A DNA stretch of 64,000 nucleotides, taken from the sequence record NC_031103.1; one strand, written 5' to 3'. Positions within the stretch are counted from its first letter, which is position 1, and the number at the start of each line of letters is the position of its first letter. This document shows, in pieces, positions 2,418 to 64,000 of the stretch. This DNA comes from Escherichia phage vB_EcoM-UFV13. The notes under the pieces are model-generated. The model did no database searches, was not told where the DNA came from, and saw only the letters and a program-made list of their open reading frames with translations. The translations under genes and the position numbers were made by a program.

Positions 2418-2447
2418 ATTATACCACATCCTTGTGGTAAAGTAAAC
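2418..2447 (-). promoter_or_regulatory. early promoter (GTTTAC-18-TATAAT)
   Basis: Minus strand GTTTAC then 18 nt then TGGTATAAT. Confidence 0.6.
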
Positions 2448-4264
2448 TACTGGCTCATCCATTCTTTACGAAGATCAGCATTATCTCCCATGAGCATTTC
2501 AAAAAGCTCTTTCCAGTTCTCAGGAAGTTTAACAACATCATATACCGGATTTTGAATCATCTCACGATATTCAGATTTTTCCAAAGAGCCAAGTCCCTTA
2601 ATATAACGGATGCTATGTTTAGGTAGAGCATCTTTAGCACTCTCATATTCAGCGACTGTATAAAACCATTCTTGTTTTTTACCGACCTGAGCGATGATTA
2701 CAGGAGTTTTGACGAAGCGAATTCGTCCTTGCTCAAACAATTCTGGCCAATTACTAAAAAATCCGAGCAGAGAAGGATAAATGCTTCCTAGACCATCATG
2801 GTCAGCATCAGTCATAATAGCAATATTATGATAATTCAAGTTTTCAGCTTTTTCACCGAGAACTAATCCAGTTATTGCGCAAATATCAAATAGTTCTTTG
2901 TTTTTAAGCATATCAGCATATGACATACCCCAACTGTTGAGAACTTTACCACGCAATGGATAACCACCATGAAGTTCTTTATCACGAACATCAATAAGAT
3001 ATCCGATAGCAGAATCGCCCTCAGTTAAGAATAGTGTAGTGTCAGCATCTTTACCACAAAGATTCGCTTTGATGTGTTTATGAACCTTAGCTTTAGAAGC
3101 CTTTTTAGCTGCTTTAGTTTCTGCTGCTTTTTCTGCTGCCAATTTACGGGCCAAGGCAGCTTCAATAATTGGCATCAAAATAGCTTCATTATTTAGAATA
3201 GCGCGTGAAATCTTTTTAGCATCAAGCTGAATATGACTACGAATTTCGCCAAATGGAGAAGTCAAACGCTCTTTAGTTTGAGAATCAAATCGCATGTTTT
3301 TCATATCACGAACAAACATAACGATAGTCAAACATTCTTTGACACGTGCTTTAGTTACATCAATTTTGAACTTACGTTTGATTTGTGGAATAAGGTCTTC
3401 ACAAATATCATCCATAACACAGTCAATGTGATGGCCACCATTCTTAGTGTGGATGTTATTCACATAAGTTAATTGACGAAATCCATCCGGTGAACGACCA
3501 ACCGCAATAGAACAATTTTCTTGTTCTTGAACAATAGCATGTTCATCATACTGTCGTGCATATTTCTTAAAATTGCCCTGAACCTTTTTACCATTAAAGG
3601 TAAATTGAATATCAGGATAAACAACAGCAAGTGTCTGGAGACGATCTAGTGTAATGTCAAGATAAACTTGAGACAATTCATTAGTTTCAAATGACATAAA
3701 ATCAGGAATGAAAGTAACACGAGTTCCTTTCCATTTTCCAGGAATATCTTCCCATGATTTATTTTCCATGCCATTTGAACAACGAACTACAATATTATTT
3801 TGACCATCGCCAGTTTCACCGACAAACATCACAGAAAAAATGTTTGTCAAACTAGAACCAACACCATTCATACCGCCGGTGACACGTTCTTTATCATCAC
3901 CGAAGTTACCACCTGCTTTTGGAATAGTCCATGCAGCAACAGGACCAGGAATTTCTTCACCGGTAGGTGTTTTGACCATCGCTTGTGGAATACCGCGACC
4001 GTTATCTTCAACTGTTACTTGATTGTTTTTAATAGTAACATTAATTTTATTTGCGAATTTAAACTTAGTACGAATACCTTCATCTACTGAGTTATCGATA
4101 ATTTCATCAATAAGCTTAACAAGACCAGGTACATACTGAACACTTTCCCATTTACCAAACAGAAAGCGCTCATGCATTTCATTAGCAGAAGAGCCAATGT
4201 ACATGCCACTACGCTTTTTGATATGTTCAATATCGCTCAGAATTTTAATTTCATTCTTAATCAT
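2447..4264 (-). CDS. 39: DNA topoisomerase II large subunit gp39, uninterrupted
   Basis: Track ORF 2447..4267 begins at GTG; ATG at 4264 gives MIKNEIK...; GyrB-like ATPase and Toprim regions; about 605 aa, continuous rather than split into 39 and 60 as in T4. Confidence 0.9.
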   Translation of the reverse strand: MIKNEIKILSDIEHIKKRSGMYIGSSANEMHERFLFGKWESVQYVPGLVKLIDEIIDNSVDEGIRTKFKFANKINVTIKNNQVTVEDNGRGIPQAMVKTPTGEEIPGPVAAWTIPKAGGNFGDDKERVTGGMNGVGSSLTNIFSVMFVGETGDGQNNIVVRCSNGMENKSWEDIPGKWKGTRVTFIPDFMSFETNELSQVYLDITLDRLQTLAVVYPDIQFTFNGKKVQGNFKKYARQYDEHAIVQEQENCSIAVGRSPDGFRQLTYVNNIHTKNGGHHIDCVMDDICEDLIPQIKRKFKIDVTKARVKECLTIVMFVRDMKNMRFDSQTKERLTSPFGEIRSHIQLDAKKISRAILNNEAILMPIIEAALARKLAAEKAAETKAAKKASKAKVHKHIKANLCGKDADTTLFLTEGDSAIGYLIDVRDKELHGGYPLRGKVLNSWGMSYADMLKNKELFDICAITGLVLGEKAENLNYHNIAIMTDADHDGLGSIYPSLLGFFSNWPELFEQGRIRFVKTPVIIAQVGKKQEWFYTVAEYESAKDALPKHSIRYIKGLGSLEKSEYREMIQNPVYDVVKLPENWKELFEMLMGDNADLRKEWMSQ

Positions 4265-5800: not shown

Positions 5801-6070
5801 TTAATTAAACAGTGGAGCGATGCGTTTCAGAAGAGTAGCAGCACCTTTAGCGAATTTTACATCATGAAAAACAGTTTCTTCTTCCGTTACAACACGAGCT
5901 TTAATGTTTTCACAATCCCAATTTTTACGAACAATCTTCAAAAGCTGCAGTAAATCTTTACATTCAGCAATATCGATAACACATCCACGAGAATCTTCCA
6001 TTATCGCACGATAACCGTAAGCCATACCATAATCGTTGAAAGATTGTTCGATGATAATTAAGTTTTCCAT
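5801..6070 (-). CDS. hypothetical protein
   Basis: Track ORF begins at TTG (6082); ATG at 6070 is preceded by GGAG. Confidence 0.5.
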   Translation of the reverse strand: MENLIIIEQSFNDYGMAYGYRAIMEDSRGCVIDIAECKDLLQLLKIVRKNWDCENIKARVVTEEETVFHDVKFAKGAATLLKRIAPLFN

Positions 6071-6094
6071 TTTATTCTCCAAGTTGTTTTCTAT

Positions 6095-6137
6095 ATCAGT
6101 AGTTGATATTGATATAGTACCATAATCAACTACTGAT
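6095..6137. repeat. 13-bp inverted repeat flanking a promoter -10 element
   Basis: atcagtagttgat / atcaactactgat separated by 17 nt containing TACTAT. Confidence 0.6.
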
Positions 6138-6167
6138 GTATATAGTTTTATGAAAAAATTTTAAACT

Positions 6168-15072: not shown

Positions 15073-15098
15073 AGTACTCTCCTCTATAAGATAATTCT

Positions 15099-15128
15099 AT
15101 TATACCATACTCATTTTGGAAAGTAAAC
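15099..15128 (-). promoter_or_regulatory. early promoter
   Basis: GTTTAC-18-TATAAT just downstream of soc hairpin. Confidence 0.55.
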
Positions 15129-15141
15129 CAGTAAAATGAAA

Positions 15142-15163
15142 AAGGACTCCCGAAGGAGTCCTT
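15142..15163 (-). terminator. intercistronic CUUCGG-type RNA hairpin after soc
   Basis: aaggactcc-cgaa-ggagtcctt. Confidence 0.6.
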
Positions 15164-16354: not shown

Positions 16355-16388
16355 TATTTTTCCTTTCAATTCATGGGTTAGTAGATTA

Positions 16389-16413
16389 ATTATACAATAA
16401 ATATATAAAGCAA
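16389..16413 (-). promoter_or_regulatory. middle (MotA-box) promoter upstream of gene 56
   Basis: TTGCTTTA then 11 nt then TATAAT on minus strand. Confidence 0.5.
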
Positions 16414-16425
16414 TAAGGAGGACAT

Positions 16426-17653: not shown

Positions 17654-17818
17654 TTACTCTTCTTTTTCTTTAGATTCCTCTTTTTTCTTTTTAGGAATCT
17701 GTTCAGGACCTTTATTTACTATAGCACCTGACGTTGTTCCAGTGGAGATATTTTCAGGATTACCACCTGAATCTCCAGCTACCATATCTTCTTTGATAAA
17801 TTCTTTATATGTTTTCAT
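17654..17818 (-). CDS. 54-aa protein with capsid-targeting-like N-terminus (T4 61.1 position)
   Basis: Hand-translated MKTYKEFIKEDMVAGDSGGNPENISTG...; not in track; TAATATG coupling. Confidence 0.45.
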   Translation of the reverse strand: MKTYKEFIKEDMVAGDSGGNPENISTGTTSGAIVNKGPEQIPKKKKEESKEKEE

Positions 17819-17819
17819 A

Positions 17820-18176
17820 TTAACCTCTATTCATAAAAGCATTAAAAATTTGGTCATCAATTGATGGAACAGCAACCTTTTCTACATCATTTAACAAATC
17901 ATTAATTTCATCAGATAGCATAACGCATGTACCTTTATTTCCTGTAATTGTTACTGCGCAATTACGAACGTTTTCTTTATCAAATTTTAGGTTAATATTT
18001 TCGTAGTGAAAATCCTTTAATGCCGAATATATTTTTAAAATGAAATTGTCTTTTACTACAATAAAACCGACTTCACTATTAAAACGCGGCTCATGAAAAC
18101 TGTAATAAACCTTTTCATCTATAAAATCGTATGAAATTTTTTCCATTTTTAAATATGAAAATTCAGAACTATACAT
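17820..18176 (-). CDS. hypothetical protein (T4 61.2 position)
   Basis: 118-aa ORF between 61.1-like and sp. Confidence 0.5.
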   Translation of the reverse strand: MYSSEFSYLKMEKISYDFIDEKVYYSFHEPRFNSEVGFIVVKDNFILKIYSALKDFHYENINLKFDKENVRNCAVTITGNKGTCVMLSDEINDLLNDVEKVAVPSIDDQIFNAFMNRG

Positions 18177-18508: not shown

Positions 18509-18538
18509 ATAGTATCTCAATTTTCAACAAAAGTAAAC
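18509..18538 (-). promoter_or_regulatory. early promoter upstream of sp
   Basis: GTTTAC-18-TACTAT. Confidence 0.55.
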
Positions 18539-18585
18539 ACTAGTAGAAGCAAACAGACAAATTGCAATAATTGGTGATTTCAGTT

Positions 18586-18780
18586 TCATTCTTCTCCTCC
18601 TTCATGTTGATGAACATATTCTTTTTCAAGTCTAGAGCACAAGTTTTCATATTCAACTAATAAAAATGAATCAAGTGCGTTATTTCTATGCTGACACCGT
18701 TCTTGTAAAGAATCCATCTCTGAACGTTGTTCTTGCGTTAATAATTGATAACCTGATACTTTAGACATTTTGTTCTCCAT
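18586..18780 (-). CDS. hypothetical small protein
   Basis: 64-aa ORF; alternative ATG at 18768 has better SD; own early promoter. Confidence 0.45.
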   Translation of the reverse strand: MENKMSKVSGYQLLTQEQRSEMDSLQERCQHRNNALDSFLLVEYENLCSRLEKEYVHQHEGGEE

Positions 18781-18804
18781 TTACTCGTTTGTTTTGATAG
18801 GTCT

Positions 18805-18833
18805 ATAATAACATGTTTAAAACAAAAGTAAAC
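18805..18833 (-). promoter_or_regulatory. early promoter
   Basis: GTTTAC-17-TATTAT. Confidence 0.5.
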
Positions 18834-19087
18834 TATTTTATTTCCTCAAGTTCGTTAATCAATAAAAGTTCTCTGACGCTAAAAACAAAGAAAAATGTGT
18901 TCCCATCAACCAGAGCATGACCGCTAATAGAACACCCTCTGCGGAATTTAGAAACTTCACAATCTAGAACTGTAAAGGGTTTTAATCCTATGACTTTAGC
19001 TGTGCGTCTATTCAGTTCACAACCACTTGCGAATTTTTCCAAATCTTCTTCTGATTTAAACTGATATTCTCTATTAACTAGCATCAT
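18833..19087 (-). CDS. hypothetical small protein
   Basis: 84-aa ORF with own early promoter. Confidence 0.5.
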   Translation of the reverse strand: MMLVNREYQFKSEEDLEKFASGCELNRRTAKVIGLKPFTVLDCEVSKFRRGCSISGHALVDGNTFFFVFSVRELLLINELEEIK

Positions 19088-19118
19088 TTTCTTTTCTCCG
19101 CGATTAGCTGATAGAATT

Positions 19119-19148
19119 ACTATAACACAACTCTATCAGCTTGTAAAC
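19119..19148 (-). promoter_or_regulatory. early promoter
   Basis: GTTTAC-18-TATAGT. Confidence 0.5.
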
Positions 19149-19150
19149 TA

Positions 19151-19393
19151 CTATTTTACTATCATCAATAACTGTTTCTCTAACTTGACTATTTTACGAA
19201 AATACCTTTTACACTGACGAATCTGTCGCTTCGTAGGACGTACAGCAAACTTAATAAATTCCACTCGACCAAATGGAGGACTTTCTTCTGCTGGAATATC
19301 TAACACCAATTCCCACGTATCGGCAATAAGTGCTTTGAATTGCGTATTTTTCCTGACGCTATACGGAGTAGGTTTAAATAAAACAATATGCAT
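19151..19393 (-). CDS. hypothetical basic protein
   Basis: ATG at 19393 one nt after dmd stop, preceded by GAGGA. Confidence 0.5.
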   Translation of the reverse strand: MHIVLFKPTPYSVRKNTQFKALIADTWELVLDIPAEESPPFGRVEFIKFAVRPTKRQIRQCKRYFRKIVKLEKQLLMIVK

Positions 19394-24660: not shown

Positions 24661-25041
24661 TCACTTAGTCAAATTTTTTACGCATGAATTATAAGAATTC
24701 ACTACATACTCCATCGGAGCATTTTTACCAGTACGCCATTGGTAATTATTAGCCCAATTAGCCCAAAGCTCGGCGCAGTAGTTTTCAATTTTTTCTTCGC
24801 GTGTAATTACATCAGAATTACGATATGCTTGAGCAGATTCATCTGGACGAATAGCTTCGTCAAAATTCGCCTGCATTTGTTCTACTGTTTGCTTTGGAGC
24901 TTCTTTATAACACTTGACATTAGGATTATAAAACTTGCTTGAACAGTTTACAATTTTTCCTACATCAGATTGATTTACTACCGGTCCTTGAGCTACACAA
25001 CCAGTAAGACCTAATGCAATAACCAAAATAGCAATTTTCAT
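24661..25041 (-). CDS. predicted lipoprotein
   Basis: 126 aa; signal peptide with lipobox LTGC. Confidence 0.5.
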   Translation of the reverse strand: MKIAILVIALGLTGCVAQGPVVNQSDVGKIVNCSSKFYNPNVKCYKEAPKQTVEQMQANFDEAIRPDESAQAYRNSDVITREEKIENYCAELWANWANNYQWRTGKNAPMEYVVNSYNSCVKNLTK

Positions 25042-25053
25042 AATAATTTCCTC

Positions 25054-25305
25054 TTAAAACTTAACAAATAACTTTAAAGCATCTTCAGTTTTAATTCCTT
25101 TTCTTACACCTATAACAGAAATTGGCTGTGACTGAAATTTTCCTTTACCATTATAAATTTCTAATCCAGTAACCATTCCATTTTGTTCTATAATACCGTA
25201 AGTGTTACCTTCATTTTCAAATTCTTTAACTTTAAAGAGTTTATTAGCTTTTTCTGCGTTAACAACTTTTAAATTTTGAATAAAATTAGTTTGAATATTT
25301 TTCAT
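25054..25305 (-). CDS. hypothetical small protein
   Basis: 83 aa; GGAGGA SD; conserved promoter-leader cassette upstream. Confidence 0.55.
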   Translation of the reverse strand: MKNIQTNFIQNLKVVNAEKANKLFKVKEFENEGNTYGIIEQNGMVTGLEIYNGKGKFQSQPISVIGVRKGIKTEDALKLFVKF

Positions 25306-25342
25306 TTTGTGTTCCTCCGTAGTTGATAGTTGTATAGTACCA
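25301..25342 (-). repeat. 42-bp exact direct repeat, copy 1 (promoter -10 to start codon)
   Basis: Identical to 50258-50299. Confidence 0.7.
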
Positions 25343-25363
25343 TGGAAGAACAGTCCTGTAAAC
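25334..25363 (-). promoter_or_regulatory. early promoter with conserved leader cassette
   Basis: GTTTAC-18-TACTATACAACTATCAAC...GGAGGA. Confidence 0.55.
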
Positions 25364-25450
25364 AGTTTTGTGAAAAATTTTTTAGGGAATACAAAGGGTC
25401 CAGAATCATCTCTTTTTCATAAGTATAGATTTATATTACTTGTGTGAAAA

Positions 25451-25468
25451 AGGGACCCGGAGGTCCCT
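25451..25468 (-). terminator. RNA hairpin after gene 43
   Basis: agggacc-cgga-ggtccct. Confidence 0.55.
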
Positions 25469-39605: not shown

Positions 39606-39635
39606 ATAATACCACAGTTTGAACTTCTTGTAAAC
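39606..39635 (-). promoter_or_regulatory. early promoter
   Basis: GTTTAC-18-TATTAT. Confidence 0.5.
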
Positions 39636-39733
39636 AACTTTGTGAAAAATATTTTAGGGAATGACAAGAAGGGAACGATAGCTTAGAATGGTAATATACA
39701 GAATGCGAGAAAGAAAGGCCCAGAGGGCCCGTC

Positions 39734-47313: not shown

Positions 47314-47343
47314 ATTATACCACATCCTTGTGGCAAAGTAAAC
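47314..47343 (-). promoter_or_regulatory. early promoter
   Basis: GTTTAC-18-TATAAT; near-identical to promoter at 2418-2447. Confidence 0.6.
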
Positions 47344-48368
47344 TAGTTCAGTGCATTTAGTGCATTGTTCAGTTTAGAACGTTGCTTCGTAAGATTTTTG
47401 ACTTTTTCTTGAGCTTTTTCCAACATCTTTTCAGCTTCTAGCACTTCATTAGTTGCTTTAACGAGTTCATCATCTACTGCCTTGATAGACTTCTCAATCG
47501 CATCTGCATGCCATTTTTCAACAGGTTTAAGACTCGGATTTTCAATAGGAAGAAAATTCACTTTATTGAATTTCCATGCATCTTTATTACCTGAACTATA
47601 CATCCAAAATTTAGGATCGTTTGATAAGTAATTGGATAAATTTAAATTTAAGTTATCTTGTACTTCCTGCTTTTTCTCTTGCGGGACTTCGTCCTTTCTC
47701 AAAAAATCATATTTAAATGAAACAACCATATCAAGTTCATATGTTGTTGTGTCTAATTTAAATCGTTCAAAACGAGGTAAAATCTTAGATTGAACAGCGG
47801 CAACAACATCCATATACTTAAATGCTTCTGTCAACTGTGATTTAAGGCATTCACAAATTGAAAGAGAATTTTTAGTATTAGGCTTAAAGCTAATTCGCGC
47901 AGTTCTATTATTTTCCTTTAATGGTCTTACTTCCATCTGAAGAGTATAACCATCAAATTTAAGATTCTTTAAGTTAATATCAGAACCTTTTAATCGACTA
48001 GCAGTAGACAAAATTTGCTTTAATTGTCTACGGAACAGAGCAATAAATCTCCATTCAATACGATAATGATTTGGATTGAAAAATCCAGATGATAAATCGA
48101 CCTTACTTTGACCAACGCCTTGAACAAATAGAGGATTTTTATAATCAATAGTTTTACAGAAATCGGTGAGCTGCTCACGAGCAGTCATTTGTGTAATATA
48201 TCCCGCTTTACTAAAATGACGTAACCATTCACTGCTATTCATATATTTAAAGTGAATATCACGATTAACTTTATCAGGGTCTAAATTATTTTGGCACAAA
48301 AATGTCATAACATCACGAGTATAGCTGGCATTACGAACCATATCTTCAATTTGAGAACGAGTTTTCAT
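47343..48368 (-). CDS. coiled-coil-tailed protein, paralog family member C
   Basis: 341 aa. Confidence 0.55.
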   Translation of the reverse strand: MKTRSQIEDMVRNASYTRDVMTFLCQNNLDPDKVNRDIHFKYMNSSEWLRHFSKAGYITQMTAREQLTDFCKTIDYKNPLFVQGVGQSKVDLSSGFFNPNHYRIEWRFIALFRRQLKQILSTASRLKGSDINLKNLKFDGYTLQMEVRPLKENNRTARISFKPNTKNSLSICECLKSQLTEAFKYMDVVAAVQSKILPRFERFKLDTTTYELDMVVSFKYDFLRKDEVPQEKKQEVQDNLNLNLSNYLSNDPKFWMYSSGNKDAWKFNKVNFLPIENPSLKPVEKWHADAIEKSIKAVDDELVKATNEVLEAEKMLEKAQEKVKNLTKQRSKLNNALNALN

Positions 48369-49734: not shown

Positions 49735-50262
49735 TTATGCGAGTACCGTCTTTAACCGTTCTTCAAACTTCCGAAGAGTATTTTGGCGTTCAGCTCTTTG
49801 CTTTTTGTAAGTTTCAATACGCTCTGAAATGAGAGTGTATCGTTCATTTACTGATTCTTTCATAAAATCAGGAATTTCACGAGAAGCTTTAATCTCATCA
49901 AATTTATCAATAACAGCTTGCTCTTCAGCAATTAAGTTATCATACATCAAAATATCTTTCTTGATGAACTCAATATCTTCTTGAGTTACACGAGATAATT
50001 TAGATGCTTTATCCTTTTTGTACTGTTCATTAGTATCACGAGACCAGTGTAATGTACGATTTTTATTCGTATTTTTGTAAATTTCTACAATACCAATCTC
50101 ATCGATAATAACGATCCAATTCCAACGGGATTTGTAAATTTGTCCTCCATCAACCGTGATTTCACCTCCGATTGAGATGTCATTAAAGAACTTGCTTTGT
50201 GCTTCTGATTTAAATTTACCATCGTTGTAATTTACCAGGTTGAAAATATCTTTAGCGTTCAT
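49735..50262 (-). CDS. hypothetical protein with C-terminal coiled coil
   Basis: ATG at 50262 after conserved promoter-leader cassette. Confidence 0.5.
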   Translation of the reverse strand: MNAKDIFNLVNYNDGKFKSEAQSKFFNDISIGGEITVDGGQIYKSRWNWIVIIDEIGIVEIYKNTNKNRTLHWSRDTNEQYKKDKASKLSRVTQEDIEFIKKDILMYDNLIAEEQAVIDKFDEIKASREIPDFMKESVNERYTLISERIETYKKQRAERQNTLRKFEERLKTVLA

Positions 50263-50299
50263 TTTGTGTTCCTCCGTAGTTGATAGTTGTATAGTACCA
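50258..50299 (-). repeat. 42-bp exact direct repeat, copy 2
   Basis: Identical to 25301-25342. Confidence 0.7.
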
Positions 50300-50320
50300 C
50301 AGAGGAACGGTCTTGTAAAC
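50291..50320 (-). promoter_or_regulatory. early promoter with conserved leader cassette
   Basis: GTTTAC-18-TACTAT; leader identical to cassette at 25301-25342. Confidence 0.55.
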
Positions 50321-50726: not shown

Positions 50727-51695
50727 TTATTTCAGAAGAGTAACCTCAGCAATTTCTTCCCAACCGTTTTTGTCGGTCATAATAAAGTCAGCAAGATAAA
50801 GTGCAGTACGCAGTGAAACATTGCGTAAACGATTAACATTGACTTTCATCCATGATAATGCTTTATAAGTTTCTTCATCAGAAAGACCGCGCTTTTGCAT
50901 CATGTCAGTTGAAAGAATAACATCTTCAACCCTGACCATAATTTCTTCATTAGTGTGAACACCCAAATCTAAATAAACTGAGCGGGACACTAATGCTTGT
51001 AAATGTGGAGCAAGTTTAGTACCACGGTCTAATTCGCGGTCAATGTCAACGTTTGTGATAAAAACAATCGTTCCTTTAAATTCAAACTCGCGCTCAATGC
51101 CTTTTTCTTCTAAGTAAGAAGATGCAGTGCTCCAGCAGACTTTACGGGTCTCTCCGGTGTCCAGAGCAGCTTTTAGAAGATTAAGAATGTCCATATCAGA
51201 GAAAACATCCACATCATCAATCAAAAGGACAGAATTCTCTTCACGATTATTCCAAAGCTGCTCATAAAGACCAATACCAGAGATTTTACCATTAATGCTT
51301 TTATACTCAATGTATCCAATATCATTTGCTTTATTTAAAGCTTTATCTAAAGAATACGTTTTACCAATACCTGCTGCACCAGAGATAATTAATGAACGAA
51401 TGTTTCCGTTAATAATACCATTCGTCATCATTCCCATAACATTAAATCTTTTATTAATGCGGGTTTTCATATCTTCATACGATTCTTTAACTTCTTCAAC
51501 TTTTACACCATCATATGAAATGTCTGATTTGTAAACCCAAACACCGCGACGTTTACCGTCAATTTCAACAAAAACTTTACCATCTCCTTGTGCATCTACC
51601 GGAGCATTATCTGGGAACCACTCACCTAAGAGTTCAAAAGTTCCAGAGATTTCTTTACCGAAGTAGATACCCTTATTGATAGTTACAGTTTTCAT
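50727..51695 (-). CDS. P-loop NTPase (AAA-like ATPase)
   Basis: ATG at 51695 (MKTVTINKG...); Walker A GAAGIGKTYS, Walker B VLLIDDVD. Confidence 0.6.
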   Translation of the reverse strand: MKTVTINKGIYFGKEISGTFELLGEWFPDNAPVDAQGDGKVFVEIDGKRRGVWVYKSDISYDGVKVEEVKESYEDMKTRINKRFNVMGMMTNGIINGNIRSLIISGAAGIGKTYSLDKALNKANDIGYIEYKSINGKISGIGLYEQLWNNREENSVLLIDDVDVFSDMDILNLLKAALDTGETRKVCWSTASSYLEEKGIEREFEFKGTIVFITNVDIDRELDRGTKLAPHLQALVSRSVYLDLGVHTNEEIMVRVEDVILSTDMMQKRGLSDEETYKALSWMKVNVNRLRNVSLRTALYLADFIMTDKNGWEEIAEVTLLK

Positions 51696-51729
51696 TTTAT
51701 TCTCCAAATCCGTATCAGTTGATAGTTGT

Positions 51730-51759
51730 ATAGTACCATAAAGCTTTATGCTTGTAAAC
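51730..51759 (-). promoter_or_regulatory. early promoter upstream of P-loop ATPase gene
   Basis: GTTTAC-18-TACTAT. Confidence 0.55.
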
Positions 51760-51790
51760 TGTTTTGTGAAAAAATTTTTGAAATAAAAAA

Positions 51791-51808
51791 GGGAGCCCGA
51801 AGGCTCCC
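51791..51808 (-). terminator. CUUCGG-type RNA hairpin between NTase and ATPase genes
   Basis: gggagcc-cgaa-ggctccc. Confidence 0.6.
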
Positions 51809-51810
51809 TA

Positions 51811-55137: not shown

Positions 55138-55289
55138 GCCATGTGAGTTGCAACTTCATCACACATATTATAACGTTTCTTAAGAAGTTCTACCAGTTCT
55201 TCACTAGTAACTTCATCCATGTCGACGAAAAAATCACCATTGATGATGACGTAGATATTTCCTTCTTGATTGAGTGCTTCAATTTTCAT
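55101..55289 (-). CDS. hypothetical small protein
   Basis: ATG at 55289 preceded by AGAGGAG. Confidence 0.45.
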
Positions 55290-55317
55290 GATGTTCTCCT
55301 CTTTATCCGATAGTTGT

Positions 55318-55347
55318 ATAGTATCACAGCCCAAACGGAAAGTAAAC
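55318..55347 (-). promoter_or_regulatory. early promoter
   Basis: GTTTAC-18-TACTAT downstream of hairpin. Confidence 0.55.
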
Positions 55348-55362
55348 CGGTAAAATGAAAAA

Positions 55363-55380
55363 AGTCTCCCGAAGGAGACT
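55363..55380 (-). terminator. CUUCGG-type RNA hairpin
   Basis: agtctcc-cgaa-ggagact. Confidence 0.6.
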
Positions 55381-59027: not shown

Positions 59028-59489
59028 TCATTGAGTTTTAATTACTGCTTTAGAAGCCTTTCCTGGTAAACGACGACTGTTAATAATTGCCATCCTGCAT
59101 TGAAGCGACGGGTCTTTGAACTTCGCATTAGGTTTACAAACTGTAAATCCAAGCCAAAGATTTCCATCTGTGATTTCTAAACGTCCAGGACGATATTCAA
59201 CCCCATCAATAAAATCCTCGTCAATGTCAGGACGCGGAGGCATACTTAGGAATTCATTAACTTCTAAAACATGGTCTTTTATTTTATGGAATAATTCAAA
59301 AACGTATGTCTCATCAATCTCCCGTTGAATTGCGCGATCAAGAAGATGTTGAGAATATTTTAGATGAAACGATGAGACCCCTGCTGCTTTTGATGCCTCA
59401 CGAATCTCATTGTTAATTTGACGAAACTCCGACTCAAAGTGACGACGAAGCTTATTTCGACGGATAAAAACTTCTGTGTTGATAGTCAT
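59028..59489 (-). CDS. regB: RegB endoribonuclease
   Basis: 153 aa; matches T4 RegB as recalled. Confidence 0.9.
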   Translation of the reverse strand: MTINTEVFIRRNKLRRHFESEFRQINNEIREASKAAGVSSFHLKYSQHLLDRAIQREIDETYVFELFHKIKDHVLEVNEFLSMPPRPDIDEDFIDGVEYRPGRLEITDGNLWLGFTVCKPNAKFKDPSLQCRMAIINSRRLPGKASKAVIKTQ

Positions 59490-59516: not shown

Positions 59517-59546
59517 ATTATACCACAGTCAAGAGGAAAAGTAAAC
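59517..59546 (-). promoter_or_regulatory. early promoter upstream of regB
   Basis: GTTTAC-18-TATAAT. Confidence 0.55.
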
Positions 59547-61708: not shown

Positions 61709-62284
61709 TTAGGAATTACGGGCTGCATTAGCAACGGCGTAAGCGTACTGAACATTAGCGTCTTTAAACGTACCTTTAGAGGTATCTATTTCTGCCTTAA
61801 AGCCGCCTTTAGTCATAACATCGGCAAATTCTTTACGGAAAGCCATTGCATCAAGACTTCTCCATGATGATTTGTGCTTGGCGAATTCAAGACCAGCGTA
61901 GTTGACAGCCTTAGCTAATTTATTATCAATAACCCATTTACCAGCTTTAGGCACAAACACCGGGCCTTTCTGTTTAGAGAATAGTTTTAAATTCCAGCGA
62001 CGAAGGTCACCGTCAGCTTTAACAAAAGCTGCGTCCAAATTACTAGCAACAACATCTTGAATATGGCCAAATTTAAGCCCATCAACTTCAATATTTAGAT
62101 CGGTACGCCAGCGAAGTCCTTCCCAAGCGAAAGCTTTAAAGTCAGAAGCTTTTGTAGCTAAGTATCGTTCAATAGGGGCTGTTTTAGGGTCAAAGCCGTT
62201 TCCTCGGTAAGTCCACTCATCTTTATTAATGCCTTTGGCCTTTTCCACAGAAGCTTCAGCGATAAATTCTTTATACGTTTTCAT
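61709..62284 (-). CDS. internal protein with capsid targeting sequence (IPIII-like)
   Basis: 191 aa; N-terminal MKTYKEFIAE. Confidence 0.7.
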   Translation of the reverse strand: MKTYKEFIAEASVEKAKGINKDEWTYRGNGFDPKTAPIERYLATKASDFKAFAWEGLRWRTDLNIEVDGLKFGHIQDVVASNLDAAFVKADGDLRRWNLKLFSKQKGPVFVPKAGKWVIDNKLAKAVNYAGLEFAKHKSSWRSLDAMAFRKEFADVMTKGGFKAEIDTSKGTFKDANVQYAYAVANAARNS

Positions 62285-62298
62285 GTGTTTCCTTTATT

Positions 62299-62613
62299 TT
62301 ATTCTTTAGGGAAGTTTTTAGAATATGCATCATAAAGCTTATTTCCAATACGGCGGAAAACTCTAGCCGCAAAACGATTTTCAGGGTTTTTAATCATGAT
62401 TTGCATCATGTAAGTTCCTGCATCCGAAAGAGCTTCTTCATAGTACCCATTAATTTCTTTAAGAGTCCTACGTTTACCACCAGGACCATCAACAGTAATT
62501 TTCCATTTACCTGTAGAAGTGCGGCTCGGTGGTTCAACTTGTTCAATCCAAATATAACCGCCTTCAACGCGTTGTCCGGCGGATTCTGCAATAAATTCTT
62601 TATATGTTTTCAT
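62299..62613 (-). CDS. internal protein with capsid targeting sequence (IPII-like)
   Basis: 104 aa; N-terminal MKTYKEFIAE; own early promoter. Confidence 0.7.
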   Translation of the reverse strand: MKTYKEFIAESAGQRVEGGYIWIEQVEPPSRTSTGKWKITVDGPGGKRRTLKEINGYYEEALSDAGTYMMQIMIKNPENRFAARVFRRIGNKLYDAYSKNFPKE

Positions 62614-62643
62614 TTTTGTTTCCTTGTTTGTTTTGATAGAGTA

Positions 62644-62673
62644 ATTATACCATATTAATACTTAAGCGTAAAC
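62644..62673 (-). promoter_or_regulatory. early promoter upstream of IPII-like gene
   Basis: GTTTAC-18-TATAAT. Confidence 0.55.
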
Positions 62674-62676
62674 AAT

Positions 62677-62935
62677 TTAAGCTTTACCGCCAGAAATAAT
62701 TCCGAAGTTGTTAAAATCGTATCCAATATCGTCAACATCTACTTTAGTACTTGCTACAACATAAGCAATTTCACTACGTTTTGCATAGGTGTTGATTTCT
62801 TTACCATCGCCACCTAAGAAAGTACCCATTACGTTTTAATGAGCCAAAGTCTTCCGCATCACCAATGAAAGCTTTAACTTTAAATTTAGGACCTTTGGCA
62901 TCTGCTTCAACGATAAATTCTTGATACATTTTCAT
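62677..62935 (-). pseudogene. internal-protein-like gene with apparent +1 frameshift
   Basis: MKMYQEFIVE... terminates after 44 codons; reading continues in another frame to 62677; shift near C-run about 62825-62827. Confidence 0.45.
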
Positions 62936-62941
62936 TTTTCC

Positions 62942-63355
62942 TTAGTAAATTGATTTACCATAGTATTTGTACCAAGTCGGACGTTGAGCAATTTTTTCAT
63001 CTAAGCGTGCTTGACTTATCGCAATGGACGCTTCAGACGGGACGTAATTATTACGAAATTCTACAGGAATGTCGGAAATATCCTGGACTGTCGTGTCCTT
63101 GATTTTGAAACCACGTTTCAAACATTCAGCGATTAGCTCGATTTGACGTAAACGTAAAAATTCGAGTTTGTCGTAAAAGAATGTTACGTGACCTGTGCCT
63201 AAGATAAATGTTGGAGAGATTTTAAAATCCTTTACACGTTTACCGTTTTGAACATGTTTACGGACTGCACCAAATACGCGTGGTAATTCACGATACTCAG
63301 CCATAAGATGTTGGTCGGTCAGTTCAGAAACAAGTGTTAAATTGATACGAGTCAT
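62942..63355 (-). CDS. denV: endonuclease V (pyrimidine dimer DNA glycosylase)
   Basis: ATG at 63355 gives [12 protein letters not shown]...; matches T4 endo V. Confidence 0.9.
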
Positions 63356-63382
63356 AATTTCCTCCAAGTAGTTGATGAATGT

Positions 63383-63412
63383 ATAGTATCAAAACCCTTG
63401 GAGGAAGTAAAC
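63383..63412 (-). promoter_or_regulatory. early promoter upstream of denV
   Basis: GTTTAC-18-TACTAT. Confidence 0.55.
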
Positions 63413-63413
63413 A

Positions 63414-64000
<587 letters not shown>

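What the first reader, a model, noticed from the sequence alone, without database searches (positions are those of the whole stretch)
25301..25342. Family of early promoters sharing an identical -10-to-ATG leader, including a 42-bp exact repeat 25 kb apart
Segments 25301-25342 and 50258-50299 are identical. On the coding strand they read GGTACTATACAACTATCAACTACGGAGGAACACAAAATGAA, i.e. the -10, transcription start, ribosome-binding site and start codon. Shorter versions of the same leader occur at about 51707-51759, 55297-55347, 63361-63412 and 6095-6140. A shared leader suggests common post-transcriptional control; the GGAG in the ribosome-binding site is the kind of site RegB endoribonuclease cuts in T4 early mRNAs. 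Identical repeats are also substrates for recombination.
Basis: partly seen in the sequence, partly recalled or inferred. Interest (0 to 1): 0.5.

Follow-up and report, generated by a model that had tools for sequence, protein, structure and literature searches.

The report
T4 early promoter–leader cassettes, duplicated
The 42-bp exact repeat is real, but it is the promoter, short leader and start codon of two ordinary early genes of a T4-type phage, a portable regulatory cassette already described for these phages.

Summary
The window is a T4-type coliphage (Tequatrovirus, about 98% identical to RB51/RB68/RB27/T2-like phages), with all genes on the minus strand.

**Observation.** Segments 25301-25342 and 50258-50299 are exactly identical over 42 bp. 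The identity starts at the TG of the extended -10 and ends two bases past the ATG. Copy 1 drives an 83-aa accessory ORF (RB51ncORF048c) between gene 43 and imm.1. Copy 2 drives nrdC.8.

**What it is.** Both are canonical T4 early promoters (GTTTAC, 17 bp, TGnTACTAT), two of 18 clear ones in the window.

**Why the copies match.**
- T4 has the same nrdC.8 cassette but no ORF048c; there the promoter drives imm.1 through a different leader, the one nrdC.10 uses.
- Most relatives carry a third, unrelated ORF in that slot.
- The same leader also precedes ndd.4 and another ORF in other phages.
- One ORF is found behind either leader.

These are mosaic, recombining promoter-leader cassettes, the kind described as PeSLs (Arbiol 2010; Comeau 2014).

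**RegB.** The identical T4 nrdC.8 site is reported as moderately cleaved in vivo. The T4 denV and mobD.5 sites resist, so there is no family-wide control.

**Verdict.** Real, explained and already known; low interest.

The parts
25301..25342 (-). Exact repeat copy 1. TGn and -10 TACTAT at 25342-25334. Inferred start near 25327. Leader type D1 with SD GGAGG at 25318-25314. ATG at 25305-25303, plus 2 nt of ORF048c.
50258..50299 (-). Exact repeat copy 2. The same elements for nrdC.8: -10 at 50296-50291, SD at 50275-50271, ATG at 50262-50260.
25334..25390 (-). Early promoter of the gene 43 to imm.1 slot. A/T-rich upstream block AAAAATTTTTCACAAAAC, -35 TTTACA at 25362-25357, 17-bp spacer, TGG, -10 TACTAT. 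The upstream block is 89% identical to 39626-39662 and 73% to 51750-51786.
   Evidence: (D9)
50291..50320 (-). Early promoter of nrdC.8: GTTTACA, 17-bp spacer, TGG, TACTAT. It begins directly after the nrdC.9 stop codon and has no adjacent stem-loop.
25054..25305 (-). ORF048c, an 83-aa accessory ORF of unknown function (phrog_18567). Absent from T4. Present in 36 of 50,697 phage records.
49735..50262 (-). nrdC.8 coding sequence, 175 aa, unknown function (phrog_2274). Unrelated to ORF048c.
24661..25041 (-). imm.1. In T4 it is the first gene behind this promoter. Here it is second, 12 nt after the ORF048c stop, with its own RBS GAGGAAATTATT.
25451..25468 (-). Stem-loop (GGGACC-TCCG-GGTCCC) after gene 43, 88 nt upstream of the -35. 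The scan scored it on the + strand; on the - strand the T tail is one T short of its threshold.
51693..51809 (-). nrdC.10 cassette. Terminator hairpin at 51809-51790, -35 at 51758, the same TGGTACTATACAACTATCAAC core, then leader type D2 (TGATACGGATTTGGAGAATAAA) and ATG at 51695.
55287..55380 (-). mobD.5 cassette. Terminator hairpin at 55380-55363, -35 at 55346, TGATACTATACAACTATC, a different leader, and ATG at 55289.
63353..63412 (-). denV cassette. GTTTACT, 17-bp spacer, TGATACTATACATTCATCAACTAC, SD GGAGG, ATG at 63355.
6068..6162 (-). Degenerate cassette before accessory ORF RB51ncORF009c. Upstream block AAAATTTTTTCATAAAAC, decayed -35 (TATACA), TGGTACTATATCAATATCAAC, extended D2-like leader, SD GGAGAATAAAA, ATG at 6070.
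   Evidence: (D8, D15)
59028..59489 (-). regB endoribonuclease gene, 153 aa, behind its own early promoter (G of GTTTAC at 59546), with SD GGAGAAUAACA.

Best explanation
**What the repeat is.** The two 42-bp copies are the downstream halves of two host-sigma70 'early' promoters of a T4-type phage, each with the complete translation initiation region of its first gene. Each copy holds the extended -10 (TGGTACTAT), the start region, a ~22-nt unstructured 5' leader with a strong GGAGG Shine-Dalgarno, and the ATG.

**How it works.** E. coli RNA polymerase fires these promoters immediately after infection. The short open leader gives efficient translation. RegB, with ribosomal protein S1, cuts the GGAG moderately and so helps shut the messages off later.

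**Why the copies are identical.** This is not a special regulatory device. In T-even phages the promoter-leader unit behaves as a portable, recombining cassette. Crossovers fall in the conserved core (TGGTACTATACAACTATCAAC) on one side and at or near the start codon (ATGAAA...) on the other. As a result, upstream block, spacer, core, leader and downstream ORF are reassorted between loci and between phages.

**The slot at gene 43 to imm.1.** It is polymorphic with three alleles:
- T4: the promoter runs directly into imm.1 through leader D2.
- Most relatives: a 78-aa ORF sits there behind D2.
- This phage, T2, RB27 and RB51: the 83-aa ORF048c sits there behind leader D1, the leader of nrdC.8.

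**Shown versus inferred.** Shown here or in the cited papers: sequence identity, promoter architecture, the allele series, the mosaicism, and RegB cleavage of the identical T4 sequence. Inferred: the transcription start, the direction of the exchange events, and the recombination pathway.
For: **Identity of the phage and the genes.**

**Promoter architecture and family census.**

**T4 comparison.** T4 nrdC.8 has the same promoter and leader. T4 imm.1 has the same promoter, then TGATACGGATTTGGAGAATGAA, which is the nrdC.10 leader.

**Three alleles of the slot.** They share the imm.1-proximal junction GAGGAAATTATTATGAAAAT. The T4 allele equals the majority allele minus the stretch between two ATGAAAAT 8-mers. 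Allele counts: ORF048c in 36 records (29 of them Tequatrovirus), the 78-aa ORF in 326.

**Different locus in another genus.** The ORF048c homologue in Dhakavirus IME08 lies between rI.-1 and mobD.3. It sits behind a hairpin and a promoter that resembles T4's denV promoter.

**One leader, several genes.** Leader D1 also precedes ndd.4 (RB14, slur14, FL23) and a 269c-like ORF (AUBRB02). That ORF carries leader D2 in four IMG/VR contigs.

**Different exchange endpoints.** In T2 the nrdC.8-type identity runs on through the spacer, 63 nt with 1 mismatch. Here it stops at the TGn.

**Not paralogy.** ORF048c and NrdC.8 proteins are unrelated, E = 9.1.

**Literature.** PeSL cassettes are defined as early promoter plus SD plus ATG, with a stem-loop. 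The T4/PST consensus is TTTACW-N17-TAYWAT, and crossovers were mapped between the -10 and the ATG (PMC2839356, PMC4122927). RegB data: PMC1702504.
Against: - No transcription start or expression data exist for this phage.
- The nrdC.8 copy has no adjacent stem-loop, and the ORF048c copy has one 88 nt upstream of the -35, so the full PeSL anatomy is met only by the nrdC.10 and mobD.5 members.
- Only 3 of 23 colinearity breaks between this window and T4 have an end inside an early-promoter cassette. Random placement gives 1.66, P = 0.23. Cassette-mediated exchange is therefore one of several routes here, and homing endonuclease genes account for many of the other breaks.
- In RB51 the two copies differ at 2 positions, so there is no strict within-genome homogenisation.
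- Part of the similarity across the family is certainly functional constraint on a very strong promoter.
Confidence: 0.82

Rival explanations
1. Pure functional convergence. The identical sequence is kept, or reached independently, because it is the optimal promoter, start region and ribosome-binding site. No recombination between copies is involved.
For: T4 early promoters have consensus beyond the sigma70 elements and are exceptionally strong (PMC2988021). A CTATCA-like motif after the -10 recurs in many of the 18 promoters in the window.
Against: - The family average identity in this block is only 51%, so function does not demand this exact sequence.
- Variants at leader positions are tolerated: ACAC, ACAG and ACCG.
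- Identity also covers spacer positions in T2.
- The boundaries are sharp, at the TGn and at ATG+2.
- The same ORF occurs with two different leaders, and the same promoter with three different downstream arrangements.
Confidence: 0.08
2. A dedicated post-transcriptional regulon. The shared leader is the binding or cleavage site of a phage factor (RegB/S1 or another), and its exact conservation is selected so that ORF048c and nrdC.8 are co-regulated.
For: The identical T4 nrdC.8 site is moderately cleaved by RegB in vivo (PMC1702504). GGAGG enhances cleavage. regB is encoded in the window. The leaders are unstructured, as RegB/S1 requires.
Against: - GGAG is simply one of the commonest T4 Shine-Dalgarno sequences (PMC3014915).
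- The site matches only 8 of 11 positions of GGAGRAYARAA.
- Relatives of the cassette, T4 denV and mobD.5, are RegB-resistant.
- RB51 tolerates two differences between its copies.
- Nothing links the functions of the genes that share the leader (nrdC.8, ORF048c, ndd.4, 269c-like); all are of unknown function.
Confidence: 0.12
3. Paralogy. ORF048c and nrdC.8 are duplicates of one gene, and the repeat is the conserved 5' end of that duplication.
For: Direct repeats in the same orientation, each at the start of a gene.
Against: Identity stops two bases after the ATG. The proteins share no similarity, BLASTP E = 9.1, and they belong to different PHROG families.
Confidence: 0.02
4. An assembly artefact or chimeric join in this sequence.
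For: The window contains six ambiguous bases.
Against: RB27 matches the 50-nt stretch spanning copy 1 at 100%. T2, RB51, RB68, Ozark and others have the same ORF048c arrangement, and hundreds of genomes carry the nrdC.8 copy.
Confidence: 0.01

Closest known systems
Bacteriophage T4 early promoters (Pe), including those before nrdC.8, nrdC.10, imm.1, mobD.5 and denV
   Same: Same elements: A/T-rich UP region, GTTTAC -35, 17-bp spacer, TGn, -10, and further consensus around the start (PMC2988021). The nrdC.8 promoter and leader are base-for-base identical to T4's. The nrdC.10 and mobD.5 cassettes are nearly so.
   Different: The gene 43 to imm.1 promoter here is followed by ORF048c and leader D1, not by imm.1 and leader D2 as in T4. 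The denV cassette here has a different leader and a different genomic position from T4's.
PeSL (promoter-early stem-loop) mobile regulatory cassettes of T4-type phages (Arbiol et al. 2010, PMC2839356; Comeau et al. 2014, PMC4122927)
   Same: Early promoter with an AT-rich upstream region and the SD plus ATG of the downstream gene at its 3' end. Conserved between loci. Next to accessory ORFs that differ between close relatives. Crossovers between the -10 and the ATG. The T4/PST consensus TTTACW-N17-TAYWAT is met.
   Different: A stem-loop directly adjacent to the promoter is present only at nrdC.10 and mobD.5. It is distant at ORF048c and absent at nrdC.8. ORF048c is not flanked by two cassettes, so a simple mini-circle insertion does not explain it. 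A replacement with one end in the cassette and the other at the imm.1 start region fits better. Mini-circles were not tested.
Conserved promoter and leader sequences at the internal-protein (IP) loci of T-even phages (Repoila et al. 1994, as described in PMC2839356)
   Same: T4-type early promoter elements and conserved 5' gene ends flank highly polymorphic small genes and are thought to guide their shuffling. The window carries such an IP locus at 61.7-63.7 kb.
   Different: At IP loci the conserved stretch runs into the coding region (the MKTYKEFIAE targeting leader). Here identity stops at ATG+2.
RegB/S1 target sites in T4 early mRNAs (Durand et al. 2006, PMC1702504)
   Same: An intergenic GGAG Shine-Dalgarno in an unstructured early leader. 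The identical T4 nrdC.8 site is cleaved moderately. GGAGG is a favourable variant.
   Different: The 3' part (GAACACA) departs from the A-rich consensus RAYARAA at 3 positions. The D2 leaders (GGAGAAUAAAA) match the consensus perfectly.
Integron gene cassettes (an analogy drawn by Arbiol et al. 2010)
   Same: A resident promoter platform behind which unrelated small ORFs are swapped in and out.
   Different: No integrase or attC-like site. Exchange appears to rely on short homology and the phage's general recombination system.

Membership tests
T4-type early promoter (Pe) | -35 GTTTAC(A/T), 17-bp spacer, TGn extended -10, -10 TAnnnT | tested here: met
   Both copies read GTTTACA, N17 (including TGG), TACTAT.
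T4-type early promoter (Pe) | A/T-rich UP-like region upstream of the -35 | tested here: met
   ORF048c copy: AAAAAATTTTTCACAAAAC. nrdC.8 copy: GAAGTTTCTTTTAGTT, which is less A/T-rich and overlaps the end of nrdC.9.
T4-type early promoter (Pe) | Transcription by unmodified host RNA polymerase immediately after infection, independent of phage protein synthesis | not testable with these tools
   Indirect support only. The orthologous site is annotated 'predicted early promoter' in fPS-90. Primer-extension stops at the T4 mobD.5 promoter are reported in PMC1702504.
PeSL cassette | Early promoter with the SD and start codon of the downstream gene at the 3' end, conserved between loci | tested here: met
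   42/42 identity from TGn to ATG+2, and 92% over 64 nt. The same unit stands before other genes in other phages.
PeSL cassette | Stem-loop (terminator or attenuator) just upstream of, or within, the promoter | tested here: inconclusive
   Present 13-28 nt upstream of the -35 at mobD.5 and nrdC.10. It is 88 nt upstream of the -35 at ORF048c. None at nrdC.8.
PeSL cassette | Adjacent to insertions, deletions or replacements between closely related phages | tested here: met
   Three alleles occupy the gene 43 to imm.1 slot, with the left junction inside the cassette. The ORF009c insertion and the 630-bp insertion at 18540-19169 also end in cassettes. Window-wide enrichment is not significant: 3 of 23 breaks, P = 0.23.
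PeSL cassette | Recombination between cassettes yields excised mini-circles | not testable with these tools
   Needs inverse PCR on infected cells, as in PMC2839356.
RegB/S1 cleavage site | Single-stranded GGA(G) in an intergenic region of an early transcript | tested here: met
   GGAGG lies 9 nt before the ATG. The leaders fold less stably than shuffled controls, z = +1.2.
RegB/S1 cleavage site | 11-nt consensus GGAGRAYARAA | tested here: inconclusive
   GGAGGAACACA matches 8 of 11 positions. G at position 5 is favourable. Positions 7, 8 and 10 depart from the consensus.
RegB/S1 cleavage site | RegB-dependent cut observed in vivo | not testable with these tools
   Published for the identical T4 nrdC.8 sequence as 'moderately cleaved' (PMC1702504). 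Not measured for ORF048c or for this phage.

The most novel reading that the evidence does not exclude
The conserved 21-bp core (TGGTACTATACAACTATCAAC) together with the ATGAAA start could be more than passive homology. It could be a preferred, possibly protein-guided, docking site. That would make the slots behind these promoters an integron-like gene-capture platform in T-even phages. The two leader types, D1 (moderate RegB substrate) and D2 (perfect RegB consensus), would then be interchangeable modules that set how long a captured gene's message survives.
Probability: 0.1. Interest if true: 0.5.

Novelty: already known. Interest (0 to 1): 0.15.

Why it matters
It matters little as a discovery. 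T4 early promoters, their extended consensus, RegB cleavage of the nrdC.8 leader and promoter-cassette-mediated gene shuffling are all published.

The locus is still a clean teaching example, with three alleles behind one promoter and junctions resolved to the base. It could serve as a convenient natural assay for how short-homology recombination moves accessory genes in T-even phages.

For annotation, it explains why short exact repeats tens of kilobases apart in these genomes should not be read as novel regulatory elements or assembly errors.

Tried and rejected
- **Known RNA family.** An Rfam scan of the whole window found nothing at gathering thresholds.
- **Regulatory RNA structure in the leaders.** All four leaders tested fold less stably than, or no better than, shuffled controls.
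- **Paralogy of the downstream genes.** No protein similarity. Pfam found nothing, and PHROGs gave only unknown-function families.
- **Within-genome homogenisation (concerted evolution).** RB51's two copies differ at 2 of 42 positions, so this is not supported as a rule.
- **Enrichment of window-versus-T4 breakpoints in early-promoter cassettes.** 3 of 23 breaks, P = 0.23, not significant. BLAST HSP ends are imprecise, so this is a weak test.
- **Literature not held in the library.** Miller et al. 2003 (T4 genome review with the promoter list) and Repoila et al. 1994 were unavailable. I could not check whether these exact promoters appear in the published T4 promoter tables.
- **Literature search by gene name.** It returned only Durand 2006.
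- **IMG/VR.** It holds few Tequatrovirus contigs: 4 loci with the D1 leader and 21 with the core. The population picture therefore rests mainly on the GenBank phage collection.

Full report
**What the window is.** The window is a T4-type coliphage of the genus Tequatrovirus. A 3-kb stretch around the finding is 98% identical to RB51, RB68 and vB_EcoM-S1P5QW, and matches 650 phage records. The 49-56.5 kb stretch is 97% identical to many others. GC content is about 34% and all genes lie on the minus strand. The window corresponds to roughly the first 67 kb of the T4 map, from rIIA to e.

- Segments 25301-25342 and 50258-50299 are identical over exactly 42 bp and the match extends in neither direction.
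- Over 64 nt the two loci are 92% identical (family D1).
Shuffles give 0.16.
- On the coding strand the repeat reads TGGTACTATACAACTATCAACTACGGAGGAACACAAAATGAA.
- The upper boundary is the T of the extended -10 (TGn). The lower boundary is two bases past the ATG.

**What each copy belongs to.**
- Copy 1 heads an 83-aa ORF at 25054-25305, annotated in RB51 as RB51ncORF048c. It lies between gene 43 (DNA polymerase) and imm.1.
- Copy 2 heads nrdC.8 at 49735-50262.
- Both have GTTTACA, a 17-bp spacer, TGG and TACTAT, which is the architecture of T4 early promoters.
- Hinton's review calls these 'uber' UP/-35/TGn/-10 promoters with additional regions of consensus (PMC2988021).
- The orthologous site in Yersinia phage fPS-90 is annotated as a predicted early promoter.

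**Census of the family.** A scan finds 18 clear members in the window, all on the minus strand. Six of them use TACTAT as the -10. Over the 31 nt from TGn onward:

| Pair | Identity |
|---|---|
| ORF048c / nrdC.8 | 100% |
| nrdC.10 with either | 81% |
| mobD.5 with either | 77% |
| denV with either | 68% |
| all 153 pairs, mean | 51% (sd 11%) |

So there is a real subfamily, but only two members share the whole leader. nrdC.10 and the degenerate copy at 6.1 kb use a second leader, TGATACGGATTTGGAGAATAAA and a longer variant of it. mobD.5 and denV have leaders of their own.

**Why the two copies are identical: comparison with T4.**
- T4's nrdC.8 promoter and leader are base-for-base the same as here.
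- T4 has no ORF048c.
- In T4 the same promoter after gene 43 is followed, after CAACTAC, by TGATACGGATTTGGAGAATGAA and the imm.1 start. That is the nrdC.10-type leader, which I call D2.
- Here the promoter is followed by GGAGGAACACAAA, the nrdC.8-type leader, which I call D1. ORF048c comes next, then a 12-nt spacer (GAGGAAATTATT) and imm.1.

**A third allele, which is the commonest.** In fPS-90, JB75 and many others the promoter and leader D2 head an unrelated 78-aa ORF. The same GAGGAAATTATT spacer and imm.1 follow.
- That ORF is found in 326 phage records.
- ORF048c is found in 36 records: 29 Tequatrovirus, including T2, RB27, RB51, RB68 and Ozark, and 7 Dhakavirus at about 55% identity.
- The T4 arrangement equals the majority allele with the segment between two ATGAAAAT 8-mers removed.
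- The ORF048c allele differs from the majority allele by a replacement. Its left end lies in the shared core and its right end at the imm.1 ribosome-binding region.

**The pieces reassort.**
- In Dhakavirus IME08 the ORF048c homologue is at another locus, between rI.-1 and mobD.3. It sits behind a terminator hairpin and an early promoter that closely resembles T4's denV promoter.
- Leader D1, or 1-2 nt variants of it, also precedes ndd.4 in RB14, slur14 and FL23. It precedes a 269c-like ORF after denB in AUBRB02.
- In RB14 the post-denB promoter carries leader D2 and a different ORF.
- In IMG/VR contigs the exact 21-bp core TGGTACTATACAACTATCAAC precedes at least eight unrelated ORF families.
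- The 269c-like ORF (MKFKFYYAKH...) carries leader D2 there, whereas in AUBRB02 it carries D1. Leaders therefore swap independently of the ORF.
- In T2 the nrdC.8-type identity at ORF048c extends through the spacer, 63 nt with one mismatch. In this window it stops at the TGn. The exchange tracts have different ends.
- The upstream block of the ORF048c promoter is 89% identical to another promoter at 39.6 kb (D9).
- The proteins behind the two copies are unrelated, E = 9.1, and belong to different PHROG families, so paralogy is excluded.

**This is a described phenomenon.** Arbiol et al. 2010 and Comeau et al. 2014 define PeSLs. These are early promoters with an AT-rich upstream region, usually a stem-loop, and the Shine-Dalgarno and start codon of the downstream gene at the 3' end.
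- They are conserved between loci and lie next to accessory ORFs that differ between close relatives.
- For the T4/PST pair the consensus is TTTACW-N17-TAYWAT.
- Crossovers were mapped between the -10 and the ATG.
- The denB-ndd region (ndd.4/ndd.5) is one of their worked examples (PMC2839356, PMC4122927).

The cassettes here meet the promoter, SD/ATG and adjacent-indel criteria. The stem-loop criterion is met cleanly only at nrdC.10 and mobD.5. The hairpin is 88 nt upstream of the -35 at ORF048c and absent at nrdC.8.

**An attempt at a statistical test was weak.** Of 23 colinearity breaks between this window and T4, 3 have an end in a cassette, against 1.66 expected (P = 0.23). Many other breaks coincide with homing endonuclease genes or an intron present in T4 and absent here. 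Cassette exchange is thus one route among several.

**RegB.**
- regB is in the window at 59028-59489.
- Durand et al. 2006 tested 68 intergenic GGAG/U motifs of T4 by primer extension in regB+ and regB- infections. Twenty-four were cut efficiently and two moderately, nrdC.8 being one of those two. The consensus they derived is GGAGRAYARAA, and a G at position 5 is stimulatory (PMC1702504).
- The D1 site GGAGGAACACA matches 8 of 11 positions and is identical in T4 nrdC.8 and in both copies here. Moderate cleavage of the ORF048c message is a fair inference.
- The same paper reports the T4 denV Shine-Dalgarno as resistant and the mobD.5 transcript as insensitive.
- The D2 leaders match the consensus perfectly.
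- The subfamily therefore does not share one RegB behaviour.
- The leaders are unstructured and there is no Rfam match.

**Can the two copies recombine within one genome?** They are direct repeats 24,957 bp apart. A crossover between them would delete genes 43, 62, 44, 45, 46, 47 and 55, among others. From general knowledge of T4 these are essential, so such a product would not be viable. The repeat matters for exchange between co-infecting genomes and for short conversion tracts, not for deletions. This last point is inference.

**Verdict.** The interpretation as early promoters with a shared leader is right for two copies and loose for the rest. The RegB idea has already been tested in T4 with a moderate positive result for this exact sequence. 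The recombination remark points to the real explanation, which is published. The specific three-allele description of the gene 43 to imm.1 slot and the D1/D2 leader swap may not have been written up, but they are instances of a known kind.

Noticed in passing
window 50628, 50639, 50655, 50666, 58093, 58100: Six ambiguous bases (N). Four lie inside nrdC.9, just upstream of repeat copy 2, and give an X in its translation.
   Followed up: no
window 61709-63710 (-): Internal-protein locus. Three ORFs start with the targeting leader MKTY(K/S)EF(I/L)(A/S)E, and denV is embedded between them. In T4 denV lies downstream of ipII and ipIII, so the gene order differs, and the denV leader differs from T4's. 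A fifth copy of the 33-nt coding leader is at 17789-17821.
   Followed up: partly
window 18540-19169: A 630-bp insertion relative to T4. It is bounded at both ends by early promoters (-35 at 18538 and 19148) and contains a third (18833), with two small ORFs. This is the arrangement expected for cassette-flanked gene gain or loss.
   Followed up: partly
window 2418-2449 and 47314-47345: Another promoter pair 45 kb apart, identical at 31 of 32 positions from the -35 through the -10, but with different leaders. It is the mirror image of the reported repeat.
   Followed up: no
window 15074-15158 and 55293-55377: An 85-nt repeat (74% identity) covering terminator hairpin, early promoter and ribosome-binding region. 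It links the mobD.5 cassette to a promoter at 15.1 kb.
   Followed up: no
window 5801-6162 (-): An accessory ORF (RB51ncORF009c, absent from T4) sits behind a cassette whose -35 has decayed to TATACA. The cassette keeps the core and has a perfect RegB consensus, GGAGAAUAAAA, as its Shine-Dalgarno.
   Followed up: partly
window versus T4, whole window: About eight of the 23 colinearity breaks correspond to homing endonuclease genes or an intron present in T4 and absent here: mobA, segF, segA, mobB, mobC, I-TevII and mobD. The break at 16375-16414 corresponds to the T4 interval that holds dam, which is missing here.
   Followed up: partly
L006 (Dhakavirus IME08) 3737-3972: An unannotated ORF of about 78 aa directly follows the ORF048c homologue and precedes mobD.3.
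   Followed up: no
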